A program made the position numbers and the translations under genes. The notes beneath the pieces were generated by a model. That model worked only from the letters and a program-made list of their open reading frames with translations, was not told the DNA's origin and ran no database searches. Positions 43,052 to 64,000 of a stretch of 64,000 bases of DNA are shown piece by piece (the first letter of the stretch is position 1; every line of letters begins with the position of its first letter). Source of the DNA: an uncultured Eubacteriales bacterium. GTDB lineage: Bacteria > Bacillota > Clostridia > Oscillospirales > Oscillospiraceae. Location of the stretch: the NCBI GenBank assembly GCA_900552015.1, contig URXY01000003.1, positions 4,808-68,807 of the forward strand, given 5' to 3'.

Positions 43052-44290
43052 TTACTGCTGTGTTTCGCTCTTCTGCGCGCTGCGGTGGATGTACTTTTCG
43101 AGCGCCGCATACAAAAGCGGCGGGTCGATGGGCTTGGGGAGATGTTCGTTCATGCCTGCGTCGATCGTGCGCTTCTGCTCCTCGGCAAAGGCATCCGCCG
43201 TCATAGCGACGATGGGGACTGTCTTCGCGTCGGCGCGCGATAGTGCGCGGATGGCCCTCGTTGCCTCAATGCCGTTCATCACCGGCATTCTCACGTCCAT
43301 CAAAATAGCGTCGATGCCGCCGATCGCAGAGGACTCAAACTGCGAGAGAGCCTCTTGTCCGTTTTCCGCCGTGGTGACGACGCAGCCGACCTCTTCCAGA
43401 ATGAGTTTTGCCACATAGGTGTTGATCTCGTTGTCTTCGACCAGCAGGATGTTTGCGCCCCGCAAGTTCCTGCCGGGCTGCTCCTGCAAAGCCTTGTGCG
43501 CCACAGGTTCCGCCAGCGGGGCGCAGATCGTCACGACGAGTTCCGTACCCTCGCCGAGCTTGCTCTTGACGCTGATCGTGCCGCCCATGGCGTCCACCAG
43601 GCTTTTCACGATGGGAAGGCCCAGTTCGGTCCCCTTCACGCTGCCGCTGAGCTGGGAATGTTCCTGCGAAAACGGGTCGTAGAGGTGCTCTAAAAAGTCC
43701 TGACTCATGCCGATGCCGTTGTCGCGTATCGTAAAGCGCAGGTTCGCCATGCCCTCGGCAGCCGGAAGGCTCTCCATCCGCATGCAGACCTCGCCGCCCA
43801 CCGGCGTGAATTTCGCCGCGTTGGACAGCAGGTTCAAAAAGATCTGCTGGAAGCGCAGGCGGTCGACCGAAATGCACTCTGGTCCGCCATCCACGCGGCA
43901 GTCGAAGTGAATGCGGCGGCTGTCCATCAGCGGACGGATGACCGTGTTGATCAACTCGGTGAACTCTTTCTTGGTCACCGGCTCGGGATCGAGCGTCAGA
44001 CTGCCGCTTTCGATCTTGCTCATATCGAGGATGTCGTTGATGAGACCGAGCAGAAAATCGCTGGACGGATCGATCTTGTCAAGATACTCGCGGATGGTGG
44101 AGAGGTCGCTCTCCTCCTCGGCGAGGTGGGTCAGATCCACGATGGCGTTCATGAGCGTCCGGATATCGTGGCTCATGTTGCTGAGGAAGGTGGTCTTTGC
44201 CATGTTGGCCTCGCGCGCCTGCTCGAGCGCAGACTTGAGCCATCTGCTGTTGCGGTAAGATAAATACGGTATTTTCAACAAGGCGGGCAC
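43052..44290 (-). CDS. hybrid histidine kinase lacking any sensor domain (HisKA + HATPase_c + REC), probably 5'-truncated
   Basis: H-box FLSNMSHDIRT appears about 35 codons into the ORF. The only in-frame start at 44290 is a GTG inside a perfect 13-bp palindrome; the first ATG is at 44203. The C-terminal REC domain is intact. Confidence 0.6.
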   Translation of the reverse strand: MPALLKIPYLSYRNSRWLKSALEQAREANMAKTTFLSNMSHDIRTLMNAIVDLTHLAEEESDLSTIREYLDKIDPSSDFLLGLINDILDMSKIESGSLTLDPEPVTKKEFTELINTVIRPLMDSRRIHFDCRVDGGPECISVDRLRFQQIFLNLLSNAAKFTPVGGEVCMRMESLPAAEGMANLRFTIRDNGIGMSQDFLEHLYDPFSQEHSQLSGSVKGTELGLPIVKSLVDAMGGTISVKSKLGEGTELVVTICAPLAEPVAHKALQEQPGRNLRGANILLVEDNEINTYVAKLILEEVGCVVTTAENGQEALSQFESSAIGGIDAILMDVRMPVMNGIEATRAIRALSRADAKTVPIVAMTADAFAEEQKRTIDAGMNEHLPKPIDPPLLYAALEKYIHRSAQKSETQQ

Positions 44291-52551: not shown

Positions 52552-54105
52552 TCAGCTCAGATCGCCGGCGGCTTTGATCTTGACGCGGTTGGTGTTGCCG
52601 GGGTAGTAGGCGAGGGGAACGTCTTCCATCTCGATGATCTCGACGGTCTCGCGCACGGCACCGGCCTCGACCGCGAGCTCGATGGCCTCGTTCTTGGCCT
52701 TTTCGAGCGACTGCTCGCGGGGCAGCTCATCGTAGTTCATCAGCTTTTCGTAGGTACCGCTGACCTTGGAAATGGCAGAGCCGATGGCGTTGGCGCAGCC
52801 GAAATGCTCCGGCTTCAGAACCGTTGCCGCACCGCTGATCTTTTCCGGCAGGATAATGGAGCCGCCGCCGACGAGGATAAGATCGACGTCCGCGTTGGAG
52901 ACCTTCATGGCGTCCACGCTGTCTTCAACGAGGGAGCGAATGACGGCCATGGCCTTATCCGCGACCTCCTGCGGGATGTCGGCGACCTTGGACTTGTCGC
53001 CGAGCTCCACCATGCCGAGACGCACGGCGATATCGGTGGTCGTCATCGTGTTGCCGCCGAAGACGAGCGCCTTTTTCGTGATCTCATAACCCACGCTGTC
53101 GGGACCGACGGTCACGCTGCCGTCATCCTTGACGCGCACGATGGAGCCGCCGCCAAGGCCGATGGAGATGACGTCCGGCATACGGAAGTTCGTGCGCACG
53201 CCGCCGATGGTGACGGCCACGCTCGATTCACGCGGGAAGCCGTTCTGGATGACGCCGAGGTCGGTCGTCGTGCCGCCGACGTCAACGACGATGGCGTCCT
53301 TGAGCGAGGAGAGGTAGCTTGCGCCGCGGATGGAGTTCGTCGGACCGCAGGCGACCGTGAGGATAGGGTAGCGGCGGGCGTGCTCCATGGTCATGAGAGT
53401 GCCGTCGTTCTGGCTGAGATAGACGTCCGCGTTCGTGATGCCCTCGTCGCGCAGGCTCTTGGCAAAGCCCTTGGTGAAGCGCTCGGCCACTTGCCAGAGC
53501 GCGGCGTTCAGAATGGTGGCGTTCTCGCGCTCGATAAGGCCCATGGAGCCGATCTCGCTGGAGATGGAGACATGGATGTCCTCACCCATGACCTCGCGGC
53601 AGAGCTTTGCGGCCTCAAGCTCGTGGTCATTGCGGACGGTGGAGAACACGCAGGAGATGGCGACGGACTTGACGCCCTTTGCCTTCATATCGGTGAAGAA
53701 GGCCTTCGCGGCCTCCACGTCGAAGGGGGCGAGCTCCTTGCCGTCGTATTCAAAGCCGCCGCCGATGATGGCACTGCCGACAGCGACCTTCTGGATATCC
53801 TCGGCCCAGTCGACCATGGGGCGGATGCCCGTGGTGGCGGGCGCGCCGATGCGCAGGATGCCGATGGGGGCGAGGTTCTTGCGCTCCACAATGGCGTTGG
53901 TGCACTGCGTCGTGCCGAGCATGGCCTGGTGGATATGCTTGGGATCCACGCCGGAGACCTCGAGCACCGTGCGCATCGCGCCCAGAATGCCGTCGTAAAT
54001 ATCCGCAGAGGTGGGATACTTGATATCCGCGACCACCGCGCGGTTTTCGTCGATCAGGACAGCGTCCGTATTGGTGCCGCCCACATCAATTCCGAGTTTA
54101 TACAT
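52552..54105 (-). CDS. hydantoinase/oxoprolinase-family protein (HyuA-like N-terminal domain)
   Basis: Sugar-kinase/Hsp70/actin fold signatures (MYKLGIDVGGTNTD ... DVGGTTTD). Confidence 0.75.
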   Translation of the reverse strand: MYKLGIDVGGTNTDAVLIDENRAVVADIKYPTSADIYDGILGAMRTVLEVSGVDPKHIHQAMLGTTQCTNAIVERKNLAPIGILRIGAPATTGIRPMVDWAEDIQKVAVGSAIIGGGFEYDGKELAPFDVEAAKAFFTDMKAKGVKSVAISCVFSTVRNDHELEAAKLCREVMGEDIHVSISSEIGSMGLIERENATILNAALWQVAERFTKGFAKSLRDEGITNADVYLSQNDGTLMTMEHARRYPILTVACGPTNSIRGASYLSSLKDAIVVDVGGTTTDLGVIQNGFPRESSVAVTIGGVRTNFRMPDVISIGLGGGSIVRVKDDGSVTVGPDSVGYEITKKALVFGGNTMTTTDIAVRLGMVELGDKSKVADIPQEVADKAMAVIRSLVEDSVDAMKVSNADVDLILVGGGSIILPEKISGAATVLKPEHFGCANAIGSAISKVSGTYEKLMNYDELPREQSLEKAKNEAIELAVEAGAVRETVEIIEMEDVPLAYYPGNTNRVKIKAAGDLS

Positions 54106-54107
54106 CG

Positions 54108-55199
54108 TTAGTTACCTCCTTTGCTGCGCTCTTCGAGCGGAATGTAGTCGGTGTCCACGCCGAAGTAGCGCGGGCCTACGAGCTCAAGGCCCTTTTCCGT
54201 GCGCCAGAGGTGGAAGCACTTGAGACCGACCACCATGACGCGCTTACCGTACTTGAGCGCGTCGGTCGTGACAGGGGTAAAGGTCTCCGTATCCACCAGC
54301 GAAATAAGGTCGGGGGTGGTGGCAAGGATCCTGCCGTCCACCGTGGCGGTCAGGTTCTCATTCTGGAACTCCACATAGGCGGTATGGCCCTTGCACTCAC
54401 CGATGCCCTCCAGCACCACCTTGCCGATGTTGAAGCCGGCCCGGGTCTCGCGCAGCACGTCTGCGATCTTGCCCTTGAAGAGCTTGAAGCCTTCGGACAT
54501 TTCAAGGAAGTGCTCCTCGGGCGTCTTGTCGCCGCAGTCCTTGACGGTGCGGATGGCGCGGCCCAGCTGCTGGCTGCGGGTCACGATGCCGTGAACGCCA
54601 AACTCCTTCATCTCTTTACCGCTCATGGGATAAAGAGACACGGAAACGGATGCGCCGCAGCTCATGGTGACCGCCCGGGCCAGCTCCTCCGTCCACTTGT
54701 TGGTGATGGTCTCAAAGATACAGCTGTTGCCCTTCTCGTCCACCAGCGCCATCGGCGTTGCCTTCATACCGCCGATGGTAAAGGTCACCATCTGCAATTC
54801 AGGGAAAGCGCGGCCCATGCCGTCCACATCCACCATCGGCATATTCAGTCGGGCCGCCGCGGCGATGGGCAGCATGGAGTTGACGCCGCCAGCCTCGATG
54901 GGCATAAAGGCGTAGATATCCCTGCCAAAGAACTTGGATACCATATCAAATAGCTTTTTGTATTCGTTTCCGCCGATGCCCTTCTCTGCCAAGACCGTCG
55001 GCGCGCCCATCATGGCGATGGGGACGACGAGCGCGTCGTCCGGCACCTCCTCCGGCTCGAGCAGCGTGACAGGACCGCACTCCTGCACCGCGCCGATGGC
55101 AACGAGCTTGCCGACATAGGGGTCGCCGCCGCCGCCCGCGCCCAGCAGGGCTGCGCCGGTGGCAATATCTTCGATCTCAGGGATACCGATTTTTCGCAT
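54108..55199 (-). CDS. DUF917 family protein (partner of hydantoinase-like proteins)
   Basis: N-terminal GAALLGAGGGGDPY signature and about 360 aa, typical of DUF917. Arranged in tandem with the hydantoinase-like gene. Confidence 0.7.
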   Translation of the reverse strand: MRKIGIPEIEDIATGAALLGAGGGGDPYVGKLVAIGAVQECGPVTLLEPEEVPDDALVVPIAMMGAPTVLAEKGIGGNEYKKLFDMVSKFFGRDIYAFMPIEAGGVNSMLPIAAAARLNMPMVDVDGMGRAFPELQMVTFTIGGMKATPMALVDEKGNSCIFETITNKWTEELARAVTMSCGASVSVSLYPMSGKEMKEFGVHGIVTRSQQLGRAIRTVKDCGDKTPEEHFLEMSEGFKLFKGKIADVLRETRAGFNIGKVVLEGIGECKGHTAYVEFQNENLTATVDGRILATTPDLISLVDTETFTPVTTDALKYGKRVMVVGLKCFHLWRTEKGLELVGPRYFGVDTDYIPLEERSKGGN

Positions 55200-55276
55200 G
55201 ACCTTTTCCTTCTTTCATTAAAATTACAACGCAAGGAGAAGCGAGCGGACGCTTGCTCCTCCTGCAAGAGAGGGGA

Positions 55277-56599
55277 TTACGCAGTTTCCTTTTCGGGAAA
55301 GACCTTCGCAAGGATGACGTACAGCACGAGCGAGACGACGATACCGTTGACCGGGCCGACAAAGAACGGCCAGTTCAGGAACGGCAGGGCCTCGACAAGG
55401 CCGGGGAAGCTTGCGAACGTGCCGCCGGTGATGCAGGCGAAGATAGCGCCCACAGCGAAGGAGATGATGCCGACGGCGGAGAAGCCGGAACGGATGGCGA
55501 AGTTTTCCTTCTTGCCCTTGCCGACGATCCAGTAGGACGCAATGAGCACGCCCGCGAGCGGCGGGATGAGGGCGGACATGAGCGACAGGAAGCTCTGGAA
55601 GGCGTTGAGCAGGCCGAAGGCGGCGAGCAGCGTGCCGATGCCGCCGGCGACGCCGGTCGTGACCTTGAACTTGCTCTCATCAAAGCCGAGCAGGTTGCTC
55701 AAGGCGAGACCGCCAGAGTAAGCATTGGTGACGTTGGTCGTCCAGGTGGCGAGCACAAGGGCGATAAGGCCGATGAACGGCACGCCGAGGGAGGCGAGGA
55801 TGGCGGAGATGTCATACTGGCCCGTGACGATGCTCATCAGCGCGCCGGTCATGAGCATGAAGAGACCTGCGGGGATGACGCCGACGATGGAGGACTTGAC
55901 CACGTCGCCGCGGCTCTTGGCAAAGCGGCAGTAGTCGGCGGAGATGACGCCGCCGAGGGCAAAGGAGGCAACGACCATGGAGATGCCGAACACCAGACCG
56001 CTCGAGACTTCAGGCGCATAGTTCGCGATGGCGCTGCCGCCGTCGTTGGCGGTGATACCGGCGATCAGGCCGTACAGGCAGACGATGACGAGCAGGGGAA
56101 CGGCGATGTAGTTGAGCCACTTGAGACCCTTGAAGCCGATGCAGGCCGTGACCAGCATGATGACGCCCCAGACGATGGAGCTGATAGAGACGAACAGGGG
56201 AGACGCCTCAGTGCCCATCATGCTCGCAAGCATACTGGCAAAGGCGCTGCCGCAGGTCGCGGACTGAATGCCGAACCAGCCGACGCAGGCGATGGCAAGG
56301 AGCGTGCTGATGATGTAGCGCGCGCCCTTTTCACCCAGCGCGCCGGAGGCCATCACCGAAACGGGAAGGCCCGTATCACAGGCCTGCATACCGATGCAGA
56401 TCATATATGCGCAGATCAGACCGTAGCCGATCAGAATGGACGCAATGATCTCGCCCATGCTCAGTCCGCCGCCGGCCAGCACGCCGCCGATCATCAGGCA
56501 GGGGACACAGATCATGCCGCCCGCCCAGACTGCCGCGATGGACAGCCAGTTCTGGCGTTGGGATTCGTCTACTTTGAATCCGCTGTTGTTTTCACTCAT
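55277..56599 (-). CDS. NCS1 family nucleobase/cytosine-type permease (CodB-like)
   Basis: 12-TM protein with purine-cytosine permease family conservation. Start ATG 56599 (MSENNSGFK). The track ORF is extended upstream by an alternate start. Confidence 0.8.
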   Translation of the reverse strand: MSENNSGFKVDESQRQNWLSIAAVWAGGMICVPCLMIGGVLAGGGLSMGEIIASILIGYGLICAYMICIGMQACDTGLPVSVMASGALGEKGARYIISTLLAIACVGWFGIQSATCGSAFASMLASMMGTEASPLFVSISSIVWGVIMLVTACIGFKGLKWLNYIAVPLLVIVCLYGLIAGITANDGGSAIANYAPEVSSGLVFGISMVVASFALGGVISADYCRFAKSRGDVVKSSIVGVIPAGLFMLMTGALMSIVTGQYDISAILASLGVPFIGLIALVLATWTTNVTNAYSGGLALSNLLGFDESKFKVTTGVAGGIGTLLAAFGLLNAFQSFLSLMSALIPPLAGVLIASYWIVGKGKKENFAIRSGFSAVGIISFAVGAIFACITGGTFASFPGLVEALPFLNWPFFVGPVNGIVVSLVLYVILAKVFPEKETA

Positions 56600-56693
56600 G
56601 GAAAGCACCTCTTTTTTGGAAGTTTTGCGGGGGGAAAATGAAGAATGGGGCAAGTATAACACCGGAAAATGCAAATGAATACTGTCGGATAGG

Positions 56694-56746
56694 CAGAAAA
56701 AAAGCTCCACGCATTGTCCTGAAAGACAATTCGTGGAGCTTTTCTC
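56694..56746. terminator. bidirectional terminator between the PucR regulator and the permease operon
   Basis: 16-bp stem AGCTCCACGCATTGTC / GACAATTCGTGGAGCT (1 mismatch) flanked by A7 and T4. Confidence 0.65.
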
Positions 56747-56756
56747 ATAATGAATA

Positions 56757-58352
56757 TCAATGCGCCTCATGGAGCAGGCGGTAAATGGCCGCGCCGCGGT
56801 AAAGCTCGATGGTCTCTGGCATCTTGCCGATACGGTAGCCCAGAAGGTCGGAGATGCGCTGCAGGCGGTATTTGATGGTGTTCTTGTGCAGAAACAGCAT
56901 CTCTGCTGTACGGGTCACGCTGCTGTCGCAGTCCAAAAGGAACACGCAGGCGGTGTGTAGCAGTTCCGGATATTCCGTCTCAGACTGGAGGACAGAGAGC
57001 GGCAGGATGCGCTGCGCGGCAGCGGCCTCGCCCTCGCTGATGCGCCTGCGGCAGGAGGAGGCGAGCTCCAGCTCGCCCTGCAGAAATACATTTTTGTGGG
57101 GGAAAATGCGTTTTGCGTCGTCCAAGTTGTCCAGCATCGACAAATATGCGCGGCGGCAGCTTGTTGTATTGGACAATCCGCTGCAGCGGACGACCACAGC
57201 GTCCGGACTGGCTCTGAGCGCACCAGCAAGGAGCTCCTGTATCACGCTCTCCGCTTCGCGCAGCGAGTGGGGCGTGCTCAGAAACATGACGGGTTGGCCT
57301 TCATAGATGCCGCCGACGACGGTGTCGGCACACTGGCGCGCGAGCGCGAGGTCCTGCTCCATGCGGGAGCTCACTTCGTCCGCACTTGTGCCGCAGAGCA
57401 TCCAGAGCTCATGGATGGCGGCGACGTCAACATGGAAAATGTCGGCCAGGCGCCGCATCTTGAGCGGATCATCCTGCAAAATGGCACGCAGCAGCTCGTG
57501 GATAGCGACCGCGCCATGCTGCCGGCCCCAGATATTGATGCAGATACGCACGGTGTCCGCCGCCTGCTCCACGGCGCGCTCGCCCAGCGGCGTGCCGACC
57601 TTGATGAGCGTTAGCTGGAGCGGCTGGGCAAGGTCCGACTGAATGGAGACAGAAGACATTTCCGCGTCTGGCAGGAAGGAACATGGTAGGTGCGCCTGCT
57701 CCGCGGGCAGCGGCAGACGGCGCTCAATGCCCTCGCGGATGGTATCGTCCATGCCGCTTGGCCAGGTGGCGAGATTCAGGATGTTGCCCTCATGGGTACT
57801 CAGCACCGCCGAGCAGCCGAGCTCCGCGCAGAGCATTTGCAGCGCTGTGCCGACCGACTGCTGGTGATGCGGCGCGGACGAGATGCGCGCAAGAATGTCC
57901 GACACGAGCGAACCGGCTGATGAGCGATCGCGGTAGATGCACTCCGTCACGTCGGTGATGAGGTCGCTGTAGCGCAGATGCCGCTGCCCCTCCGGCATAC
58001 AGATGAGCACGAAGTCATGCGTGTCGGCAATGTCGATGAGCCGCTGATCCACGGAGGGAAGGTAGACACCGACGTAGTACAGCACGAGCCCAACTTCGCC
58101 GCCGTCGATGAGCCGCATAAGGTTCAGGCACTGACGGTCTATGTCGTTGATGCAGTTCAAAAAGCCTGTGATGACGATCTCGCTTCCGGAGTACTTGTCA
58201 TGCGGGAAGACCTCGTTGACGAGGACCGAGGGGTCCGTGGATTCCAGCACCGAGATGGACGAGACCACCTTTTGCAGTCCGCCCGCCCCGCCCAGGACCT
58301 TCGCCTGCCGCAGAGAGGGGAGCTTCAGCAGATCCGATACCGTAACGCTCAC
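56757..58352 (-). CDS. PucR-family transcriptional regulator (purine catabolism regulator-like, C-terminal HTH)
   Basis: N-terminal PucR-type domain (MSVTVSDLLKLPSLRQAKVLGGAGGL). C-terminal PucR HTH (TAEMLFLHKNTIKYRLQRISDLLG). Confidence 0.8.
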   Translation of the reverse strand: MSVTVSDLLKLPSLRQAKVLGGAGGLQKVVSSISVLESTDPSVLVNEVFPHDKYSGSEIVITGFLNCINDIDRQCLNLMRLIDGGEVGLVLYYVGVYLPSVDQRLIDIADTHDFVLICMPEGQRHLRYSDLITDVTECIYRDRSSAGSLVSDILARISSAPHHQQSVGTALQMLCAELGCSAVLSTHEGNILNLATWPSGMDDTIREGIERRLPLPAEQAHLPCSFLPDAEMSSVSIQSDLAQPLQLTLIKVGTPLGERAVEQAADTVRICINIWGRQHGAVAIHELLRAILQDDPLKMRRLADIFHVDVAAIHELWMLCGTSADEVSSRMEQDLALARQCADTVVGGIYEGQPVMFLSTPHSLREAESVIQELLAGALRASPDAVVVRCSGLSNTTSCRRAYLSMLDNLDDAKRIFPHKNVFLQGELELASSCRRRISEGEAAAAQRILPLSVLQSETEYPELLHTACVFLLDCDSSVTRTAEMLFLHKNTIKYRLQRISDLLGYRIGKMPETIELYRGAAIYRLLHEAH

Positions 58353-58676
58353 GCTGTGCCTCCTATTCTTATCCGCCGATCTTAAAAAAGCAGCGGAGAG
58401 CTGAGAAAATAAAATTTTCCTCTATTGTAGCCGCAAGATGAAAAAATGGCAAGAGGGAAGGCCGCATATGCTGTTTTTGCAAGTGTGTCCGGCGGGGCAA
58501 CAGATAAGTGGTGAAAGGCCATTGCGCGCTTTGCAGTGGGAAGTATTAGCTCATAGCCAGCCTATTATCGCAAAAGACTTCGGAGACCTTACGCTGCAAG
58601 GCCTCCGAAGTTCTTTTCTAAAGTGCAGTGCTTTTACACTTGCCAGTATTAAATTATAGAGTATCAGCGCTTTCGC

Positions 58677-59462
58677 TCACTCAAAAAGCCAACTGTACTT
58701 TCGCTTCTGCTCGAGCAGCACATATTCAGCCCGCTGGAGCACCTCTGGATCATAAAGCTCAGATGATCGCTCAAACTCTTTTTTCAGTTCATCTCGTGTG
58801 ATATGGAACGTAAGCTGTGAGCCATATAACTCCTCCGCTGCCGCCATTTGCTCTGCATGGTCTCGATCAAATGGTTTTGCCTTTACTCGCTCAATGCAGG
58901 TATACAGATCATCCGTGAGCGGGTAGTCGTTCAGATCCGAAAGCAGTGAAAGGCCATTATCGAAAATCGGACAAAGGCGGAACTCCTTGGTCTCTTCGTA
59001 CCGTAATACAGCAAGATCGTTTGTATGCCGGTCTTCATTGAGCGTTAGGCAATCAAGCTCCAGGATGGCAGTGAGATACTTCCCCACATCCGTCAAGTTT
59101 GTAACTCGCTCTATAAAGTCGACCGTATAAACGATCCGATCCTTCGGTGGATCAAACGCTGCAAGTGCCTGTGCAAGACCGTGGCCTTCATAGGCACGGT
59201 GCAACCGCTCAAACGGGATCAGCATTTCCCCTTTCCGCATAAAATCGCGGCTGATACATCCGGCCACATCTTTATCGTCATAATGAAGAAGGACCGGATC
59301 ATAGGTCACAAGATCCGCTGCGTTTGAATGTGCCAGCAGGCGCGAAACGATGACTTCGGCCAACGCCTCATAACCCATGTGATCTGCCTTGTACCCCGTA
59401 AGATAAACATATTTGCTGTGGGATGGATGTTCTTCCTGCCAGATCATATCTTCGTCATTCAA
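58677..59462 (-). CDS. HipA-like kinase C-terminal domain protein (stand-alone, no HipA N-domain)
   Basis: HipA catalytic-loop-like motifs (LNEDRHTNDLAVL and PIFDNGLSLL). Only 261 aa. No RBS upstream of the annotated ATG. Confidence 0.5.
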   Translation of the reverse strand: MNDEDMIWQEEHPSHSKYVYLTGYKADHMGYEALAEVIVSRLLAHSNAADLVTYDPVLLHYDDKDVAGCISRDFMRKGEMLIPFERLHRAYEGHGLAQALAAFDPPKDRIVYTVDFIERVTNLTDVGKYLTAILELDCLTLNEDRHTNDLAVLRYEETKEFRLCPIFDNGLSLLSDLNDYPLTDDLYTCIERVKAKPFDRDHAEQMAAAEELYGSQLTFHITRDELKKEFERSSELYDPEVLQRAEYVLLEQKRKYSWLFE

Positions 59463-59702
59463 ATCATTCAGAACATCAAAATCATGACCCTTCTAGGCAC
59501 AAGTAGGTGTGGTGCGTATCATTTCATAGGAATTACCCCATGGTATTCCCTGATCATAATAGGTACTTCAATGTTCTATCACAAACGAAAGACTCGCAGT
59601 AGCGGGATGACTTAGCATCCTTAACTACTACGAGTCCTTGTGCTTATGCAGTTGGACGGTAAGCATGGTGGTATAAGGCGGCACTCACTATGAGAGCTGC
59701 CG
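59463..59702. other. low-GC, highly structured non-coding island (possible ncRNA or mobile-element remnant)
   Basis: GC content drops visibly relative to flanks. Compound hairpin GACTCGCAGTAG ... GGATG-N-CATCC ... CTACTACGAGTC, and GCTTATGCAG...GGTAAGC. No ORF. Confidence 0.3.
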
Positions 59703-60155
59703 TCAGAGTAGCCGCTGTATCACGCAGAGACGCTGCAGATCGGTGTCGTAGAAAAGATATAGAGTGCTGTTGTCCTCCGCCGTGCGGCTGTTCCAGCGGT
59801 AGGCATGGGTGTAGTCGGGCAGGTAGGCCTCATCTACTTCAAGATAAGACAGGATATCCGTGATGTCCTGCTCGGCCTGAACGCTCTTCTGCTCGGTCAG
59901 GTGGGAGAGGAACGTCTCGTCCCCACCGTCCCATTGGAAGACAGTGTAGCGCTCGCCGTCGCCGTGAAAGCTTGTTGGCGTATGTACGTTGTATTCCTCC
60001 CGGATGCCCTTCGGCAGGTCGATATCCCAGTTTATTTCGATCGTCCGTTCGGTCGTGAAGTAGAGGTTTCCCAGAAGATACAGCCCCGCCGGGACCGTGA
60101 TCGCGATGACAGCGACCGCAAGCATGATCTGAAGCGTTGTCTTTGCCGTACGCAT
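59703..60155 (-). CDS. hypothetical membrane-anchored protein (N-terminal TM)
   Basis: N-terminal hydrophobic helix (LQIMLAVAVIAITVPAGLYLLG). No motif recognised. Confidence 0.45.
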   Translation of the reverse strand: MRTAKTTLQIMLAVAVIAITVPAGLYLLGNLYFTTERTIEINWDIDLPKGIREEYNVHTPTSFHGDGERYTVFQWDGGDETFLSHLTEQKSVQAEQDITDILSYLEVDEAYLPDYTHAYRWNSRTAEDNSTLYLFYDTDLQRLCVIQRLL

Positions 60156-60233
60156 GAGCCCGCCCTCCCATCGTTTGTCAGTTACCTGATTAGACGCAGG
60201 CAGGGAACAAAAGGTTCCATAGTGGGTAACAAT

Positions 60234-60407
60234 ATGGAAAACGGAACAAAACTCAGAATCCTATATTTATATCAACACCTTGTTCAACACACCGATGCCG
60301 AGCATACATTAGCGACCGCCGAGCTGATGAAGATCCTCAAGGAAGACTATTCCTTTAAGGTCTCCCGCAACACGATCAGTGATGATCTTCCTATACATAC
60401 GACGTGA
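60234..60407 (+). pseudogene. N-terminal HTH fragment of a DeoR/WYL-type regulator, abutting a truncated kinase fragment
   Basis: MENGTKLRILYLYQHLVQHTDAEHTLATAELMKILKEDYSFKVSRNTISDDL is a typical HTH_11-type N-terminus. The ORF ends after about 58 codons with no ligand-binding domain. Confidence 0.5.
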
Positions 60408-61770
60408 AGTGCCCTATATATACAAGGCTCAGCTTTCCAGCCAGCACCTGCTCAGCCTGATCAACGATGTACTGGATATGAGCAAGATCGAGTCCGGTGA
60501 GGTCAGTCTGAACCGCGAGCCGGTCAGCTTTGCGGAGATCGTCGGCCAGATCGACAGCATCATCCGCTCCCAGACCAACGAGCGCGGACAGTCCTTCCAA
60601 ATGCAGGTCCACACAGTGGCGCATGAGTACATCATGTCAGACGGTTTGCGCCTGTGCCAGCTACTTATCAACCTGCTCTCCAATGCCACCAAGTACACAC
60701 CGCGCGGCGGCAGCATCACCTTTGACCTCATTGAGCGTCCTTGCGATAAGGATGGCTATGCCTCCTACCGCATCATCGTGGAGGACACCGGCTTCGGTAT
60801 GGCTCCGGAGTTTATGGAACATCTTTTTGAGGCTTTTGCGCGCGAGGAAAATTCCAGAACAAATCAGATACAGGGCACGGGCCTCGGCATGGCGATCGCC
60901 AAGAACATCGTCGATATGATGGGCGGTACGATCAGTGTGCAAAGCGAGGTCGGCAAGGAGACCCGCTTCGAGGTCGATCTGACCTTTGAAATTGATCACA
61001 ACGCCGATATGAAGGTAGACCTTGGCTCGGCGCTGCTCATTATCGACGACGAGGTGCTGCGCGATAACATGGCAGCTTCCATGCGGGAGGCCAATGTCCG
61101 CTTCTATACCGCCACGACCCGTGCGGAGGCGACGGAACTGATGCAGCAGCAGAACATGGATATCGTCCTGATTGGCGGCCATCTTGCCGACGAAGAACTG
61201 GCAGACAAGGTGGCCTTGATCCGCAATGCCGCAAAAGAAGCCATCCTGATCCTCTTTGTGGATCATGTTCGCGCCGATCAGATCGAAGAAGTGGTGTCCG
61301 CCTGCCGTGCGGATGGCCTGATCCCCCGTCCATTCTTCCTCTCGAATCTCCTGCGGACCATTGAACGGATCAGGAACGCGGATGCCTATGAGGATAAGCG
61401 GCGCTCCAGTCTCAAGGGTAAGCATTTCCTCTGTGCGGAGGACAGCCAGCTCAACGCAGAGATATTAACGGCGATTCTGGAGGATAAGGGCGCAAGCTGC
61501 ACGATCTGCCGCAACGGTCAGGAGATCGTAGACGCCTTTGCGTCGGTCAAGCCCGGCGAGTATGACGTGATCCTCATGGATATGCAGATGCCGCAGATGA
61601 ACGGTCTGGAGGCGACAAAGATTATCCGCAGCGGCGAGAACCCGCTGGGTAAGACCATCCCCATTATTGCGATGACCGCAAATGCCTTTAACATTTTCTG
61701 CGTGCTTTATAATACGTTTATCCAATCAACAGGGGGAAATTTGTTATTACTTATCAGAAGCAGGATGTAA
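60379..61770 (+). pseudogene. hybrid histidine-kinase fragment truncated at both ends (partial HisKA, HATPase_c, degenerate REC, partial second REC)
   Basis: Homology to the 43052..44290 kinase starts mid-HisKA (LLSLINDVLDMSKIESG). The second REC stops after AMTANAF and runs into non-homologous sequence. Confidence 0.6.
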
Positions 61771-62235
61771 CAGCGTATTGCCGCTATTTTTGCAGAGAAG
61801 ACCGTACAAGCCGAAAACATTCTGCGGTCGCTCAAACGCCACTGAGGGCAATTACGGTGTGTTTCCCATTATATCTATCTCGGATGCGGATATGGACAGA
61901 GAGAGGTACAGAGCAAAAATGTGGCAGACACCGCAAAAGCATTGCTGCTTCCCGGAAGAGCCGATAGAACTGTCTGATGCCCGTACCGAGCGTCTGGACG
62001 AGATCGACAACGCTGTTTATGAGTGCCTCTGCGTGCTCCTTCAAAAAACGGAAGATGATTGGACCTGTGGTTGAGCACAATGTCGTATTTCCAAATTGAT
62101 AAGCCCAGCTTCCGCTGGACTTTTTCGACAGGTTGTAATATAACAGAGAAGGATCTATATGAAAAAATATTTAAAAAGTTTGTGCAATAAATCGTCCTTT
62201 CCGTGCATTACACGGATGACAGGAGAAAAAAGCCC

Positions 62236-62811
62236 ATGCTCAGTATGCTGATGACAACCGAATATGCGCCGGCGGAGGAGCGCCGCGAACTGCAGCGATT
62301 GCTCATCCGCGTTGCCGGTGGTGACCGTGACGCTTTGGCGGAGCTGTATCAGCGCACGCGCGCGGCGGTGTACGGCTTAGCGCTTTCCTACCTTAAAAAC
62401 GCGCACGACGCGCAGGATATCACACAGGATGTCTATGTGCAGGTGTGGGACTGCGCAGCGCAGTACCGTTCCACTGGCTCGCCGATGGGGTGGCTGCTGA
62501 CGGTCTGCCGCAACCTCTGTCTGATGCGCCTGCGGCGCGAAGAACGTCATGCCGCGCTCAGCGAGGAGGAATGGGACGCCATTCCCGCGCAGGAATGCGG
62601 TTTGGATGCCGACGAGCGTGCGCTGCTGCAAGGCGCGCTGGCAAGCCTTGCTGATGAGGAGCGGCGCATCGTGCTGCTTCACGCGGTCACGGGCATGAAG
62701 CACCGGGAGATCGCGGCGCTGCTGGAACTGCCGCTTCCCACCGTCCTGTCGAAATATCACAGAGCATTGAAAAAGATGCGAATTTTTCTGGAAGGAGATG
62801 ACGCCCGATGA
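62236..62811 (+). CDS. RNA polymerase sigma-70 factor, ECF subfamily
   Basis: Region 2 (DITQDVYVQVWD...GWLLTVCRNLC) and region 4 (MKHREIAALLELPLPTVLSKYHRALKKMR). RBS AGGAG before ATG 62236. Confidence 0.85.
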   Translation: MLSMLMTTEYAPAEERRELQRLLIRVAGGDRDALAELYQRTRAAVYGLALSYLKNAHDAQDITQDVYVQVWDCAAQYRSTGSPMGWLLTVCRNLCLMRLRREERHAALSEEEWDAIPAQECGLDADERALLQGALASLADEERRIVLLHAVTGMKHREIAALLELPLPTVLSKYHRALKKMRIFLEGDDAR

Positions 62812-64000
62812 CCAATGAAAAAATGGAGCAGAGGCTGGCTGCGGCGCTTGAAAAGACCGCGCCGGACGATGTGAGCGGCGTTCTCTCCCGCTGTGAAGCG
62901 CGGAAAGGAACGGTAATCAACATGGAAACGAAGAAAACGACAAAGAGAAGATGGACATCGCTCATCGCCTCTTGCCTTGCGGTAATGCTGCTCGGCGGAG
63001 GACTGTTCTACCAGCGAGCGAACGCAGTCGCGTCCGTGGTGTCGCTGGATGTGAACCCGAGCATCGAGCTGAAAGTGAATCGGAGCGAAAAGGTGCTCGT
63101 CTGTACCCCGCTCAACGAGGATGCAAAAGCCATCCTTGCGGATATGAGCAATGGCGCTGACCTCAAGGGCGCGAAGCTCGACGTGGCGGTGAACGCCATC
63201 GTGGGCAGCCTTGTGCGAAACGGCTACCTCAATAGCATTTCCTCCGCCATCATGATCTCGGTGGAGGATAAGGATACCGATCGCGCGGAAAAGCTCCAGC
63301 GCGAGCTGACGAGCACCGTGGACGGTGTTTTGCAGACAAGCGAATCGAGGGCGTCCGTCCTGACGCAGACGCTTACGCAGGACGCGGGACTTACGCAGCA
63401 GGCGCGGGAGAACAGCATCTCCACCGGAAAGGCGGCACTGGTAAACCGTGTGCTGGCGCTCAACGCCACACTGAAGTTTGACGCGCTGGCGAAGCTTTCG
63501 GTCGAGGAGCTCAAGGACCTCGCCGAAGCGGGTGCACCTGCCATGCCCATCGGTATGGATGCAGCCCGCACCGCTGCGGAGGAGTATGCCGGAACGACGG
63601 CGGTGGATTCCGTTACAGCGGAGGTCGATCCCGAACTCGACGAATCCCCTGCGCACTACGAAGTAGAGCTGCAAACGGCATGGGGCGAGTTCGAGTATCT
63701 AGTGGATGCCTACACAGGGAAGGTGCTCAGCGGGCAGAAAGATTTATTGGCTGCCGTTTCCGCATCGAATGAAACGACGAAGCCCTCTGGTCAAAAGCCC
63801 GCGCCGTCCGGAACGGTGCAGGATATCGGCTACGCCAAGGCGAAGTCCATTGCCCTGAACCACGCGGGCGTGAGTGAAAATGAAGCGTATGACATGGACA
63901 TTGAGCTGGATGATGAGGACGGAAAGCTCGTCTACGAAATCGAGTTCAGATCCGGCAATATGGAATATGACTACGAGATCGACGCGGCCTCCGGCACCAT
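62808..64000 (+). CDS. putative anti-sigma factor with single TM and extracytoplasmic PepSY-like repeats, 3'-truncated by window edge
   Basis: ATGA overlap with the sigma gene. TM (WTSLIASCLAVMLLGGGLF). PepSY-like segments (AKAKSIALNHAGVSENEAYDMDIELDDEDGKLVYEIEF). Frame open to the end of the window. Confidence 0.7.
   Translation, partial: MTNEKMEQRLAAALEKTAPDDVSGVLSRCEARKGTVINMETKKTTKRRWTSLIASCLAVMLLGGGLFYQRANAVASVVSLDVNPSIELKVNRSEKVLVCTPLNEDAKAILADMSNGADLKGAKLDVAVNAIVGSLVRNGYLNSISSAIMISVEDKDTDRAEKLQRELTSTVDGVLQTSESRASVLTQTLTQDAGLTQQARENSISTGKAALVNRVLALNATLKFDALAKLSVEELKDLAEAGAPAMPIGMDAARTAAEEYAGTTAVDSVTAEVDPELDESPAHYEVELQTAWGEFEYLVDAYTGKVLSGQKDLLAAVSASNETTKPSGQKPAPSGTVQDIGYAKAKSIALNHAGVSENEAYDMDIELDDEDGKLVYEIEFRSGNMEYDYEIDAASGT

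What the first reader, a model, noticed from the sequence alone, without database searches (positions are those of the whole stretch)
58353..62235. Mosaic or rearranged segment: stand-alone HipA-like kinase domain, low-GC structured island, HTH fragment abutting a doubly truncated hybrid-kinase fragment
In under 4 kb there are several oddities:
- A HipA C-terminal-domain-only ORF with no RBS and no HipB or HipA-N partner.
- A 240-bp AT-richer non-coding island.
- An orphan membrane-anchored ORF.
- A 58-codon DeoR/WYL-type HTH N-terminus that runs straight into a histidine-kinase fragment lacking both its N- and C-termini.
This looks like the scar of insertions and deletions (decayed toxin-antitoxin or defence locus, or a mobile-element landing site), not a normal operon. 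No integrase or transposase remains in the window, so the agent is not identifiable here. The true nature of the HipA-like protein is also uncertain: it could equally be a decayed HipA or a functional minimal kinase.
Basis: partly seen in the sequence, partly recalled or inferred. Interest (0 to 1): 0.55.

Follow-up and report, generated by a model that had tools for sequence, protein, structure and literature searches.

The report
Decayed kinase module and island remnant
This 4-kb stretch of a gut Oscillospiraceae chromosome is a strain-variable hot spot holding a dead copy of a two-gene HTH-plus-HipA/CtkA-like kinase module and the collapsed remnant of a larger gene island, which is ordinary genome decay, although the intact module seen in sister strains is an uncharacterised toxin-antitoxin-like or defence-like pair.

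Summary
It can now be stated base by base, because near-identical (98.6-100%) metagenome contigs of the same species carry alternative versions of the locus.

1. An 835-bp blunt deletion (junction 59395|59396) removed a 191-aa HTH_7 gene and the first 32 codons, including the Gly-rich loop, of a 270-aa kinase gene. The rest was fused in frame to a DUF6429 mini-ORF. In the window lineage a TGG>TAG mutation at 59494 then cut that fusion.

2. The intact kinase belongs to a family of more than 1100 stand-alone proteins of about 269 aa. It has no Pfam match. Its closest fold matches are CtkA, then HipT, then HipA. An HTH_7 gene lay immediately upstream in every locus examined where upstream sequence was available.

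3. Window 60219-62042 (1824 bp) is a presence/absence polymorphism. It consists of the 5' end of a BrxR/CapW-like WYL regulator gene, an internal piece of a hybrid histidine kinase gene, and a 353-bp tail. Another haplotype at the same site has a full-length kinase, an AAA_14 gene and a tyrosine recombinase in the same order, so the window carries a collapsed island remnant.

4. The 'AT-rich island' is a terminator hairpin, a promoter-like site and the DUF6429 remnant.

Everything in the window is dead, so interest is low to moderate.

The parts
58353..58460 (-). Promoter and 5' leader region of the PucR regulator gene. It is the last stretch still shared with the nearest other species.
   Evidence: Homology with L001 (89% PucR) runs to 58460 and with other species to 58351-58355. 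In L072 a different left context starts at 58457.
58572..58616 (.). Hairpin with 19-nt arms downstream of the kinase gene. Likely the terminator of the kinase operon.
   Evidence: Inverted repeat I6, 84% complementary, 7-nt loop. The position follows from the sequence.
58677..59395 (-). The 3' 719 bp (family codons 33-270) of a CtkA/HipA-like minimal kinase gene. The catalytic NEDRHTN and IFDNG motifs are kept. The Gly-rich loop and the native start codon are lost.
   Evidence: Alignment with the intact 98%-identical P0002 and the family. blastn breakpoints. CtkA hit on the catalytic loop. Fold search.
59395..59396 (.). Junction of an 835-bp blunt deletion relative to haplotype A (L026 positions 1626-2460). 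The deletion removed 158 bp of upstream sequence, the whole 191-aa HTH_7 gene and 94 nt of the kinase gene.
   Evidence: The deletion is absent in L026, L027, L028 and L034. It is present in L025, L029-L033, L035, L072 and L074.
59396..59540 (-). The 5' part of a DUF6429 mini-ORF (ATG at 59522; alternative ATG at 59540), now fused in frame to the kinase remnant. It is interrupted by TGG>TAG at 59494.
   Evidence: The L026 ORF 1499-1684 matches DUF6429 at E=1.2e-14. P0001 is the 287-aa fusion product. The nonsense change is found only in the window, L030, L031 and L037.
59553..59636 (-). Sigma-70-like promoter match (59584-59553) for the mini-ORF, and a strong terminator hairpin (59636-59590, followed by a U-rich tail) ending the 150-aa gene. 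This is the 'structured AT-rich island'.
59703..60155 (-). 150-aa ORF with one N-terminal transmembrane helix. It is present in the haplotype contigs that cover this position (shortened to 92 aa in L034; L028 and the E contigs do not reach it). Function unknown.
   Evidence: The single-sequence AF2 model was poor (pLDDT 63) and was not used.
60219..62042 (+). 1824-bp presence/absence block (1-nt ambiguity at the ends). The empty site in haplotypes A and B reads GGTTCC|AAAAAACGG. There is no target-site duplication and there are no terminal repeats.
   Evidence: The block is identical in all the contigs that carry it that were fetched and aligned (19 carry the HK-fragment ORF).
60219..60410 (+). 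The 5' fragment of a BrxR/CapW-like WYL regulator gene: 15 nt upstream, then ATG at 60234 and about 52-58 codons of winged HTH.
   Evidence: Homologues are broken 5' ends of WYL genes at the edges of defence islands. Nucleotide homology covers 60219/60233 to 60388/60396. Junction inspection.
60413..61689 (+). Internal fragment of a hybrid histidine kinase gene: the end of the HisKA helix, HATPase_c, a pseudo-receiver and two thirds of a receiver. It lacks the sensor part, the H-box and the last ~55 residues.
   Evidence: 72% nucleotide identity to the full-length gene of L067/L069 and 85% to L047. 2-nt (TA) microhomology at the 3' junction.
61690..62042 (+). Tail segment of non-coding sequence plus the 5' part of a small ORF (61892-62074) that reads across the block's right end into the flank.
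   Evidence: 95.4% identical to, and contiguous with the flank in, L067/L068, where it follows an AAA_14 gene. Small-protein homologues are P0269, P0273 and P0274.
62237..62811 (+). ECF-type sigma factor gene forming the right flank (not part of the scar).

Best explanation
**What it is.** The segment is a recombination and indel hot spot in the chromosome of a human-gut Oscillospiraceae species, and it now holds only dead genes.

**Event 1 (shown).** A blunt 835-bp deletion removed three things:
- the HTH_7 partner gene;
- its upstream region;
- the first 32 codons of a CtkA/HipA-like kinase gene, including the GHTSKGDQPKW loop.

I infer that this loop is the ATP-binding Gly-rich loop. The deletion fused the remaining kinase sequence in frame to a DUF6429 mini-ORF.

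**Event 2 (shown).** In the window's sub-lineage a TGG>TAG mutation truncated that fusion.

**Event 3 (shown as a polymorphism; history inferred).** The 1824-bp block between the 150-aa gene and the sigma factor gene is the internally deleted remnant of a larger variable island. Its order is WYL regulator, hybrid histidine kinase, [AAA_14], tail. Another haplotype at the same site still has a full-length kinase, AAA_14 and a tyrosine recombinase in that order.

**How the intact module works (inferred).** The HTH_7 + kinase pair probably behaves like hipBA. The kinase would be a growth-arresting Ser/Thr kinase. The upstream, translationally coupled HTH protein would repress and/or neutralise it. 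The pair travels on mobile and defence islands and on prophages. Losing the HTH gene and the kinase's nucleotide-binding loop in a single event is the kind of loss a cell can survive if the kinase is toxic without its partner.
For: **Haplotypes**
- Same-species contigs at 98.6-100% identity define the haplotypes:
  - A: neither event (L026, L027; L028 has no deletion but does not reach the block site).
  - B: deletion only (L025, L072, L074).
  - C: both events (window, L029-L033, L035).
  - D: block only (L034).
- Junctions are identical to the base in all carriers.
- The block-bearing ORF P0121 is 100% identical in 19 contigs.

**Haplotype E**
- L067/L069/L070 place a full 699-aa hybrid kinase, an AAA_14/DUF4143 gene and the tail segment in the same order and orientation.
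- The tail is contiguous with the same right flank: 95.4% identity over window 61689-62224, and the flank is 98.4% identical to L026.

**Internal junctions**
- They look like simple deletions, with TA microhomology at 61689/61690.

**Kinase family**
- 1131 homologues, typically 269 aa.
- Invariant H17, S19, K20, D22, Q23, P24, K25, W26, plus NEDRHTN and FDNG motifs.
- AF2 model with pLDDT 84.7.
- Foldseek best hits: CtkA (E=3e-7, TM 0.65), then HipT, then HipA.
- The profile hits the CtkA catalytic loop at E=5.7e-5.
- PADLOC candidate PDC-M03A at E=3.9e-13.

**Partner gene**
- An HTH_7 gene lies directly upstream in L026-L028, in L039-L046 (L046 retains only its last 28 codons at the contig start) and in 14 of 14 viral contigs.
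- It overlaps the kinase gene by 14 nt or sits 7 nt away.
- It diverges in step with the kinase: about 79%/78%, 60.6%/60.6% and 45%/41% identity.

**Role of the Gly-rich loop**
- It is required for ATP binding in HipA and HipT (PMC10627512).
Against: - No experiment shows that the kinase is active or toxic, or that the HTH_7 protein neutralises it.
- The partner is not a Cro/Xre-type HipB and could not be modelled here.
- Assigning GDQPK as the Gly-rich loop rests on its position in the model (a low-confidence loop between strands 1 and 2) and on remembered HipA/HipT motifs. It does not rest on an alignment.
- The polarity of the 1824-bp polymorphism is not settled. It could be a remnant retained, or a remnant imported into an empty site.
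- Haplotype E's kinase is only 72% identical to the window fragment and has no WYL gene in the 4 kb upstream. It is therefore a cousin of the ancestral island, not the ancestor itself.
- The link between E and this locus rests on 183 bp of shared right flank.
- The differences between the window's and L026's kinase remnants are 5 non-synonymous and 6 synonymous. This gives no clear signal of relaxed selection.
Confidence: 0.85

Rival explanations
1. The empty site (haplotypes A and B) is ancestral. The 1824-bp patchwork arrived as one piece, either captured at a double-strand break or imported by homologous recombination from a strain that already carried the remnant. On this view it did not decay in place.
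For: - No target-site duplication, and only 1-nt ambiguity at the ends.
- Block-bearing and block-free haplotypes recombine freely: all four combinations with the nearby deletion exist.
- The right flank of the window is 95-96% identical to L026 while the left flank is 99% identical, as expected for an imported tract.
Against: - The tail segment is contiguous with the flank in two diverged haplotypes, C/D and E.
- The small ORF's similarity to P0273 and P0274 seems to continue about 6 residues past 62042 into the flank. That is more easily explained if the sequence is ancestral and A/B is a deletion.
- The patchwork still has to be produced by internal deletions somewhere.
Confidence: 0.3
2. 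The pieces are functional. On this view the shortened kinase (or the DUF6429-kinase fusion) acts as a stand-alone minimal kinase or pseudokinase. The 462-aa HATPase-receiver ORF would be a working orphan signalling protein driven by the WYL promoter.
For: - Both ORFs are long and uninterrupted.
- The 462-aa ORF is 100% conserved in 19 contigs.
- The fusion ORF P0001 is intact in haplotype B and stands for 51 sequences.
- The catalytic Asp residues of the kinase are retained.
Against: - The kinase remnant lacks strand 1 and the invariant loop of the family, and has no ribosome-binding site.
- The fusion carries a stop codon in the window.
- The histidine kinase fragment lacks the phospho-accepting H-box, and its receiver lacks the last third.
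- The 100% identity reflects recent common descent of near-clonal contigs, not selection.
Confidence: 0.07
3. The mosaic is an assembly chimera or a sequencing artefact.
For: Gene fragments abut each other with no mobile-element signature.
Against: Identical junctions were recovered in many independently assembled contigs from different samples and assemblers.
Confidence: 0.01

Closest known systems
[quoted passage not shown] 2021, PMC8262856)
   Same: - An upstream HTH gene and a downstream Ser/Thr-kinase-fold gene lie on one strand and are tightly coupled.
- The kinase lacks HipA N-subdomain 1, as in HipT, HipG, HipI, HipJ and HipM, so the putative Gly-rich loop sits near the N-terminus.
- The catalytic Asp/Asn loop and the Mg-binding Asp are conserved.
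- Distribution is patchy and associated with mobile elements.
   Different: - No match to Pfam HipA_C or any NCBIfam Hip model. HipT and HipA are only the second and third fold matches (TM 0.41-0.52 across the HipT and HipA chains).
- The partner is an HTH_7 protein of about 190 aa with an uncharacterised C-terminal half. It is not a Cro/Xre HipB and there is no separate HipS.
- None of the gene organisations listed in that paper (hipBA, hipBST, hipH, hipEB, hipRF, hipRG, hipMP, hipL, hipIN, hipJS) could be matched here.
CtkA (JHP0940) of Helicobacter pylori, PDB 3akj/3akk/3akl
   Same: - Best sequence and fold match.
- Similar size.
- The NxDRHxxN and IFDxG motifs align residue for residue (family D153 with CtkA D155; family D177 with CtkA D179).
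   Different: - Only 16-18% identity.
- From my own knowledge, CtkA is a secreted, pro-inflammatory kinase of a plasticity zone. No HTH_7 partner is known to me.
- The family here is from Clostridia and their prophages.
PADLOC phage-defence candidate PDC-M03 (protein A)
   Same: The kinase matches five PDC-M03A models, the best at E=3.9e-13. The neighbourhoods of family members are rich in defence and mobile genes.
   Different: - The matches are partial (residues 39-189 of 270).
- The HTH_7 partner matches no PDC-M03 component.
- I found only one paper mentioning PDC-M03 and did not open it.
BrxR/CapW-type WYL regulators at the edges of defence islands
   Same: The 57-codon fragment is 71-75% identical at the DNA level to the 5' ends of such genes, and 73-92% identical at the protein level to their products (e.g. 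P0254, P0246, P0241). In L048 the gene lies next to BREX plus CBASS-like genes and continues into WYL and WCX domains.
   Different: Only the first part of the winged HTH survives here. The WYL and WCX domains are absent and there is no defence system beside it.
Hybrid sensor histidine kinases (BarA/TorS/ArcB-like architecture)
   Same: HATPase_c and receiver domains, with 67-68% identity to full-length proteins of about 695 aa.
   Different: The sensor region, the H-box histidine and the end of the receiver are missing, so this is a pseudogene fragment. The window has a separate intact 412-aa paralogue at 43052-44290.

Membership tests
HipA/CtkA-like protein kinase fold | Overall kinase fold superposable on CtkA, HipT and HipA | tested here: met
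   AF2 model of the intact allele P0002 (pLDDT 84.7). Foldseek against PDB: CtkA E=3e-7 with TM 0.64-0.66, HipT E=1.4e-4, HipA E=6e-4. This was tested on the sister-strain allele, not on the truncated window copy.
HipA/CtkA-like protein kinase fold | Catalytic loop Asp...Asn and Mg-binding Asp | tested here: met
   NEDRHTN and IFDNG are invariant in the family and are present in the window ORF. They align with CtkA GNFDRHNGN and IFDCG.
HipA/CtkA-like protein kinase fold | N-terminal Gly-rich (ATP-binding) loop | tested here: not met
   The family has an invariant segment H-x-SK-x-DQPKW at residues 17-26 (the consensus reads GHTSKGDQPKW from residue 16; G16 and G21 are conserved at 90% or more). 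The window copy lacks residues 1-32 because of the 835-bp deletion. Calling this motif the Gly-rich loop is an inference.
HipA/CtkA-like protein kinase fold | Match to Pfam HipA_C or NCBIfam Hip models | tested here: not met
   No Pfam or NCBIfam hit at E<=10 (Pfam) or E<=1 (NCBIfam) for the window ORF, and none in Pfam at E<=1 for P0002.
hipBA-type type II toxin-antitoxin module | Adjacent, co-oriented, coupled HTH gene upstream of the kinase | tested here: not met
   Absent from the window because it was deleted. Present in every relative examined where upstream sequence was available: L026-L028, L039-L046 (only its last 28 codons in L046) and 14 of 14 viral contigs. The partner is HTH_7 (E=6e-12), not Cro/Xre.
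hipBA-type type II toxin-antitoxin module | Kinase arrests growth and the partner neutralises it | not testable with these tools
   Needs expression experiments.
PADLOC candidate system PDC-M03 | Both component proteins present | tested here: inconclusive
   Partial hits to the A component (best E=3.9e-13). The partner shows no hit to any PDC-M03 model.
WYL-domain transcription regulator (BrxR/CapW-like) | N-terminal winged HTH followed by WYL and WCX domains | tested here: not met
   Only about 52-58 codons of HTH are present. The homologous gene in L048 continues into WYL (E=1.5e-13) and WCX.
Hybrid sensor histidine kinase | HisKA with phospho-accepting His, HATPase_c and a complete receiver | tested here: not met
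   HisKA model positions 39-66 only, with the H-box SHDIRTPMN of homologues absent. HATPase_c is complete. The last receiver stops at model position 80 of 111.
Transposon, IS or integrative element insertion | Terminal repeats, target-site duplication, and a recombinase within the inserted block | tested here: not met
   No direct or inverted repeats at 60219/62042, and the empty site differs by a clean 1824 bp. Recombinases are seen only in other haplotypes.

The most novel reading that the evidence does not exclude
The intact version of the wrecked module would be a previously undescribed relative of hipBA. It pairs a ~190-aa HTH_7 protein with a translationally coupled ~269-aa CtkA-like minimal kinase that current Pfam and NCBIfam models do not detect. 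It is widespread in gut Clostridia and their prophages (more than 1100 homologues). On this reading it acts as a toxin-antitoxin or abortive-infection defence pair, with the HTH_7 protein's uncharacterised C-terminal half acting as the kinase inhibitor (a fused HipB+HipS-like role). The one-step loss of the partner together with the kinase's ATP loop in this window would be a footprint of that toxicity.
Probability: 0.45. Interest if true: 0.5.

Novelty: new member of a known kind. Interest (0 to 1): 0.3.

Why it matters
For the window itself the result is mainly a clean-up. About 3.8 kb that looks puzzling is explained as two indels and one nonsense mutation, and no working system remains.

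Two things have wider value:

1. **An unannotated kinase family.** The wreck points to a large family of minimal HipA/CtkA-like kinases that is always paired with an HTH_7 gene and sits in defence and mobile neighbourhoods of gut Firmicutes and their phages. This would extend the known range of Hip-type kinase modules and is directly testable.

2. **A documented example of within-species gene flux.** The locus has five or more structural haplotypes. All four combinations of two indels only 824 bp apart occur. Different strains carry IS or recombinase genes at the same site. It could serve as a strain marker in metagenomes.

Tried and rejected
- **Rfam.** A scan of 58000-62600 at E<=1 gave nothing. 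The structured island is therefore not a known RNA, and a terminator hairpin explains it.
- **Repeats.** A search of 56000-64000 found only short chance matches. There are no terminal repeats or duplications around either indel.
- **GTDB species representatives via PucR.** 21 of the 24 loci returned shared only the 5.8-kb PucR operon or part of it. None carried the kinase, the 150-aa gene, the sigma gene or the block next to it, so outgroup polarisation failed.
- **Exact look-up of the window's 261-aa ORF.** Not on record.
- **Plasmid and phage collections.** blastn of the 1824-bp block gave only trivial histidine-kinase matches in plasmids and none in phages.
- **The rest of the window as source of the block.** Rejected. 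Only a 44-nt match was found, and the 412-aa paralogue at 43-44 kb is about 70% identical in patches.
- **AF2 model of the 150-aa ORF.** pLDDT 63, not used.
- **Contig ends of haplotype E as a group II intron.** No Rfam match, so the idea was dropped.
- **dN/dS-style count on the kinase remnant.** 5 non-synonymous against 6 synonymous differences, too few to say anything.
- **L043/L044 WYL gene next to a kinase pair.** It is not related to the window's WYL fragment.

Full report
**Observation**

The region 58353-62235 differs in composition from its surroundings. The variable stretch 58461-62236 is 50.9% GC, against 58.9% for the window and about 61% for the flanking PucR operon and sigma factor gene.
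- a 261-aa ORF at 58677-59462 (-);
- a 150-aa ORF with an N-terminal hydrophobic helix at 59703-60155 (-);
- a 57-codon HTH ORF at 60234-60407 (+);
- a 463-aa ORF at 60379-61770 (+). It contains only the last helix of HisKA (model positions 39-66), a full HATPase_c, one receiver, and a second receiver cut at model position 80 of 111.

The 261-aa ORF matches nothing in Pfam or NCBIfam, even at permissive thresholds. Its only sequence link to HipA-type kinases is a weak hit to the H. pylori kinase CtkA over the NxDRHxxN...IFDxG stretch (E=0.014). No Rfam family matches the region. No repeats flank anything in it.

**Organism and comparators**

PucR-based retrieval places the window in a human-gut Oscillospiraceae lineage (Dysosmobacter/Oscillibacter-like). 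The nearest species representative has 89% PucR identity. Across species only the 5.8-kb PucR operon is shared, so those genomes cannot be used to polarise events.

The decisive material came from metagenome contigs of the same species, at 98.6-100% nucleotide identity. They were found through exact-protein look-ups and one DNA pattern scan.

**The deletion**

Haplotype A (L026, L027, L028) reads: sigma factor gene (divergent), 150-aa gene, DUF6429 mini-ORF (61-67 aa), 191-aa HTH_7 gene, 270-aa kinase gene, PucR.

The window matches L026 continuously except that L026 positions 1626-2460 (835 bp) are missing, with the junction at window 59395|59396. The junction is blunt (...CTTGTACC|CCGTAAG...). 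The deletion removed:
- 158 bp upstream of the HTH_7 gene;
- the whole HTH_7 gene;
- the first 94 nt of the kinase gene.

It joined the DUF6429 mini-ORF in frame to kinase codon 33. That fusion exists as an intact 287-aa product in another contig (P0001, L025).

In the window, and in L030, L031 and L037, a further TGG>TAG change at 59494 truncates the fusion. The ORF has no ribosome-binding site because its apparent start is not a real start. It has no partner because the partner gene was deleted.

The 'AT-rich structured island' (59463-59702) has three components:
- the remnant of the mini-ORF;
- a promoter-like site;
- a strong hairpin with a U-rich tail that terminates the 150-aa gene (-38 kcal/mol, z = -6.6).

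**What the kinase is**

The ORF belongs to a family of at least 1131 proteins, nearly all 269-277 aa long and stand-alone. Invariant residues include H17, S19, K20, D22, Q23, P24, K25 and W26, the NEDRHTN motif and the FDNG motif.

- A profile of the family hits the CtkA catalytic region at E=5.7e-5.
- An AlphaFold model of the intact allele is confident (pLDDT 84.7, pTM 0.86).
- Its best structural neighbours are CtkA (E=3e-7, TM about 0.65), then HipT of HipBST, then HipA. CotH and PI4K-type kinases lie further away.

'HipA-like' is therefore right at the fold level. The protein is a complete minimal kinase, not a HipA C-terminal domain. It resembles the Hip families that lack N-subdomain 1 and carry the Gly-rich loop near the N-terminus (PMC8262856).

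The deleted 32 residues include the invariant ...SKGDQPKW loop. I infer from its position in the model, and from the G-x-Q-x-K pattern I remember in HipA and HipT, that this is the ATP-binding Gly-rich loop. That loop is required for ATP binding in HipA (PMC10627512). The window copy is therefore almost certainly inactive.

**The module**

An HTH_7 gene of 191-199 aa sits immediately upstream of the kinase gene in every locus examined where upstream sequence was available:
- the sister strains;
- two unrelated chromosomal contexts rich in defence and mobile genes, including AAA_14/DUF4143, AAA_15/21, WYL, Macro, SSB and sigma-like genes;
- 14 of 14 IMG/VR viral contigs.

The two genes overlap by 14 nt or are 7 nt apart. 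They diverge in parallel: about 79%/78%, 60.6%/60.6% and about 45%/41% identity.

The kinase also hits the PADLOC defence candidate PDC-M03A (E=3.9e-13, partial). The partner hits no PDC-M03 component.

This gene order, coupling and patchy mobile distribution are what is expected of a hipBA-like toxin-antitoxin or abortive-infection pair. That is my preferred mechanism, but nothing here tests toxicity. The single deletion that took out the HTH gene and the kinase's nucleotide loop together is consistent with the kinase being harmful when unpartnered.

**The 1824-bp block**

Relative to haplotypes A and B, the window has 1824 extra bases, 60219-62042, with one base of ambiguity. The empty site reads GGTTCC|AAAAAACGG, and there is no duplication.

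The block is identical in all contigs that carry it that were fetched and aligned, always at this site. Its 462-aa ORF (P0121) is on record in 19 contigs. Assembly error is therefore excluded.

The block has three parts.

1. **60219 to about 60410.** This is the 5' end of a WYL-type regulator gene.
   - Its homologues in the protein database are all short ORFs of 38-87 aa.
   - Two contexts explain why. In L048 the gene lies at the end of a BREX + CD-NTase/Cap15 + GmrSD island and is split by a frameshift into an 87-aa piece and a 222-aa piece carrying WYL and WCX domains. In L049-L052 it is cut by IS66.

2. **60413-61689.** This is an internal piece of a hybrid histidine kinase gene.
   - Full-length relatives (about 695 aa, 67-68% identical) show what is missing: about 220 N-terminal codons that include the H-box, and the last ~55 residues.

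3. **61690-62042.** This is a tail containing the start of a small ORF (61892-62074).

**A fifth haplotype gives the context**

Contigs L067/L069 and L070 carry, in this order:
- a RelB-like gene and other small genes;
- a 282-aa tyrosine recombinase;
- a full-length 699-aa hybrid kinase, 72% identical at the nucleotide level to window 60413-61690;
- an AAA_14/DUF4143 gene on the opposite strand.

L067/L069 then continue into the tail segment, and L068, from the same sample as L070, overlaps that tail. The tail is 95.4% identical to window 61689-62224. It runs without a break into the same right flank, which is 98.4% identical to L026.

The window's kinase-to-tail junction has 2-nt microhomology (TA). 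Relative to this arrangement it corresponds to a loss of about 1.9 kb that removed the kinase's 3' end and AAA_14. The WYL-to-kinase junction is also a direct join. The block is therefore best read as the collapsed remnant of a larger, variable island at this site.

**Polarity of the block**

Whether haplotypes A and B never had the island or lost it cleanly is not settled. The small ORF's similarity to P0273 and P0274 seems to continue for about six residues beyond 62042 into the flank. This mildly favours deletion in A and B.

**Population picture**

All four combinations of the 835-bp deletion and the 1824-bp block exist. Examples are L026 (neither), L025/L072/L074 (deletion only), L034 (block only) and the window (both). 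Their junctions are identical, and the two sites are only 824 bp apart, so strains recombine at this locus.

Two more observations fit that picture:
- The window's right flank is 95-96% identical to L026, while the left flank is 99% identical.
- In L072 the block from 58457 rightwards abuts an rve-family transposase and sigma-54 genes instead of the PucR operon.

Recombinase and transposase genes do occur at the same site in other strains.

**Verdict**

The segment is an ordinary, well-resolved case of gene decay in a hot spot:
- a dead HTH_7/CtkA-like kinase module;
- a dead WYL regulator fragment;
- a dead hybrid kinase fragment;
- a surviving small membrane protein gene of unknown function.

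The only part with novelty potential is the intact module seen in sister strains. It is an unannotated relative of hipBA, and possibly a new variant of it.

Noticed in passing
window 52552-58460: The 5.8-kb operon (hydantoinase A, S-Me-THD, cytosine/purine permease, PucR regulator) is shared at 80-89% nucleotide identity (lower for the more distant or partial matches) with about 20 different species representatives. The ends are very sharp (52552 and 58351-58355, or 58460 in L001) and the flanks are unrelated. This looks like a horizontally exchanged cassette.
   Followed up: partly
L072 9029-9948 (equivalent to window 58457): In another strain the stretch corresponding to window 58457-60219 directly abuts a 302-aa rve-family transposase ORF, preceded by sigma-54, a sigma-54 activator and an alanine symporter. 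The PucR operon is not there. Window position ~58457 is therefore another rearrangement boundary.
   Followed up: partly
L069 3481-3508 and 3725-3752: A 28-nt inverted repeat pair (89% complementary, 216 nt apart) lies just downstream of a 282-aa tyrosine recombinase and upstream of the full-length hybrid kinase. The layout resembles an invertible promoter switch.
   Followed up: no
L048 6001-6980; L049-L052 (e.g. L049 6001-8696): WYL regulator genes homologous to the window fragment lie at the downstream edge of different defence islands. One island is BREX + CD-NTase/Cap15 + GmrSD. Another contains NERD, radical SAM and HATPase_c_3 genes. These WYL genes are repeatedly broken, by a frameshift in L048 and by IS66 after about codon 81 in L049-L052. 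No intact full-length copy turned up among 28 hits.
   Followed up: partly
L047 748-1833: The closest allele of the window's kinase fragment (85% nucleotide identity over window 60760-61690) is itself cut at its 5' end at a different position, next to a Glug-domain gene. This kinase gene seems prone to fragmentation.
   Followed up: no
window 43052-44290 (-): An intact 412-aa soluble hybrid histidine kinase (HisKA, HATPase_c, receiver) is a distant paralogue of the fragment, about 70-76% identical in short patches. It is not the source of the fragment.
   Followed up: partly
window 62043-63225: The sigma/anti-sigma flank is only 94.8-95.8% identical to L026 and L027, while everything left of the block is about 99% identical. 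This suggests a recombination tract boundary at or near the indel.
   Followed up: no
L071 217-339: A 123-bp piece spanning the 'empty site' occurs in a short contig with unrelated sequence on both sides, including a truncated RidA-like ORF. It may be another rearranged haplotype or a chimeric contig.
   Followed up: no
window 58482-58529: L074 lacks these 48 bp relative to the window. This is a further small indel in the spacer between the kinase terminator and the PucR promoter.
   Followed up: no
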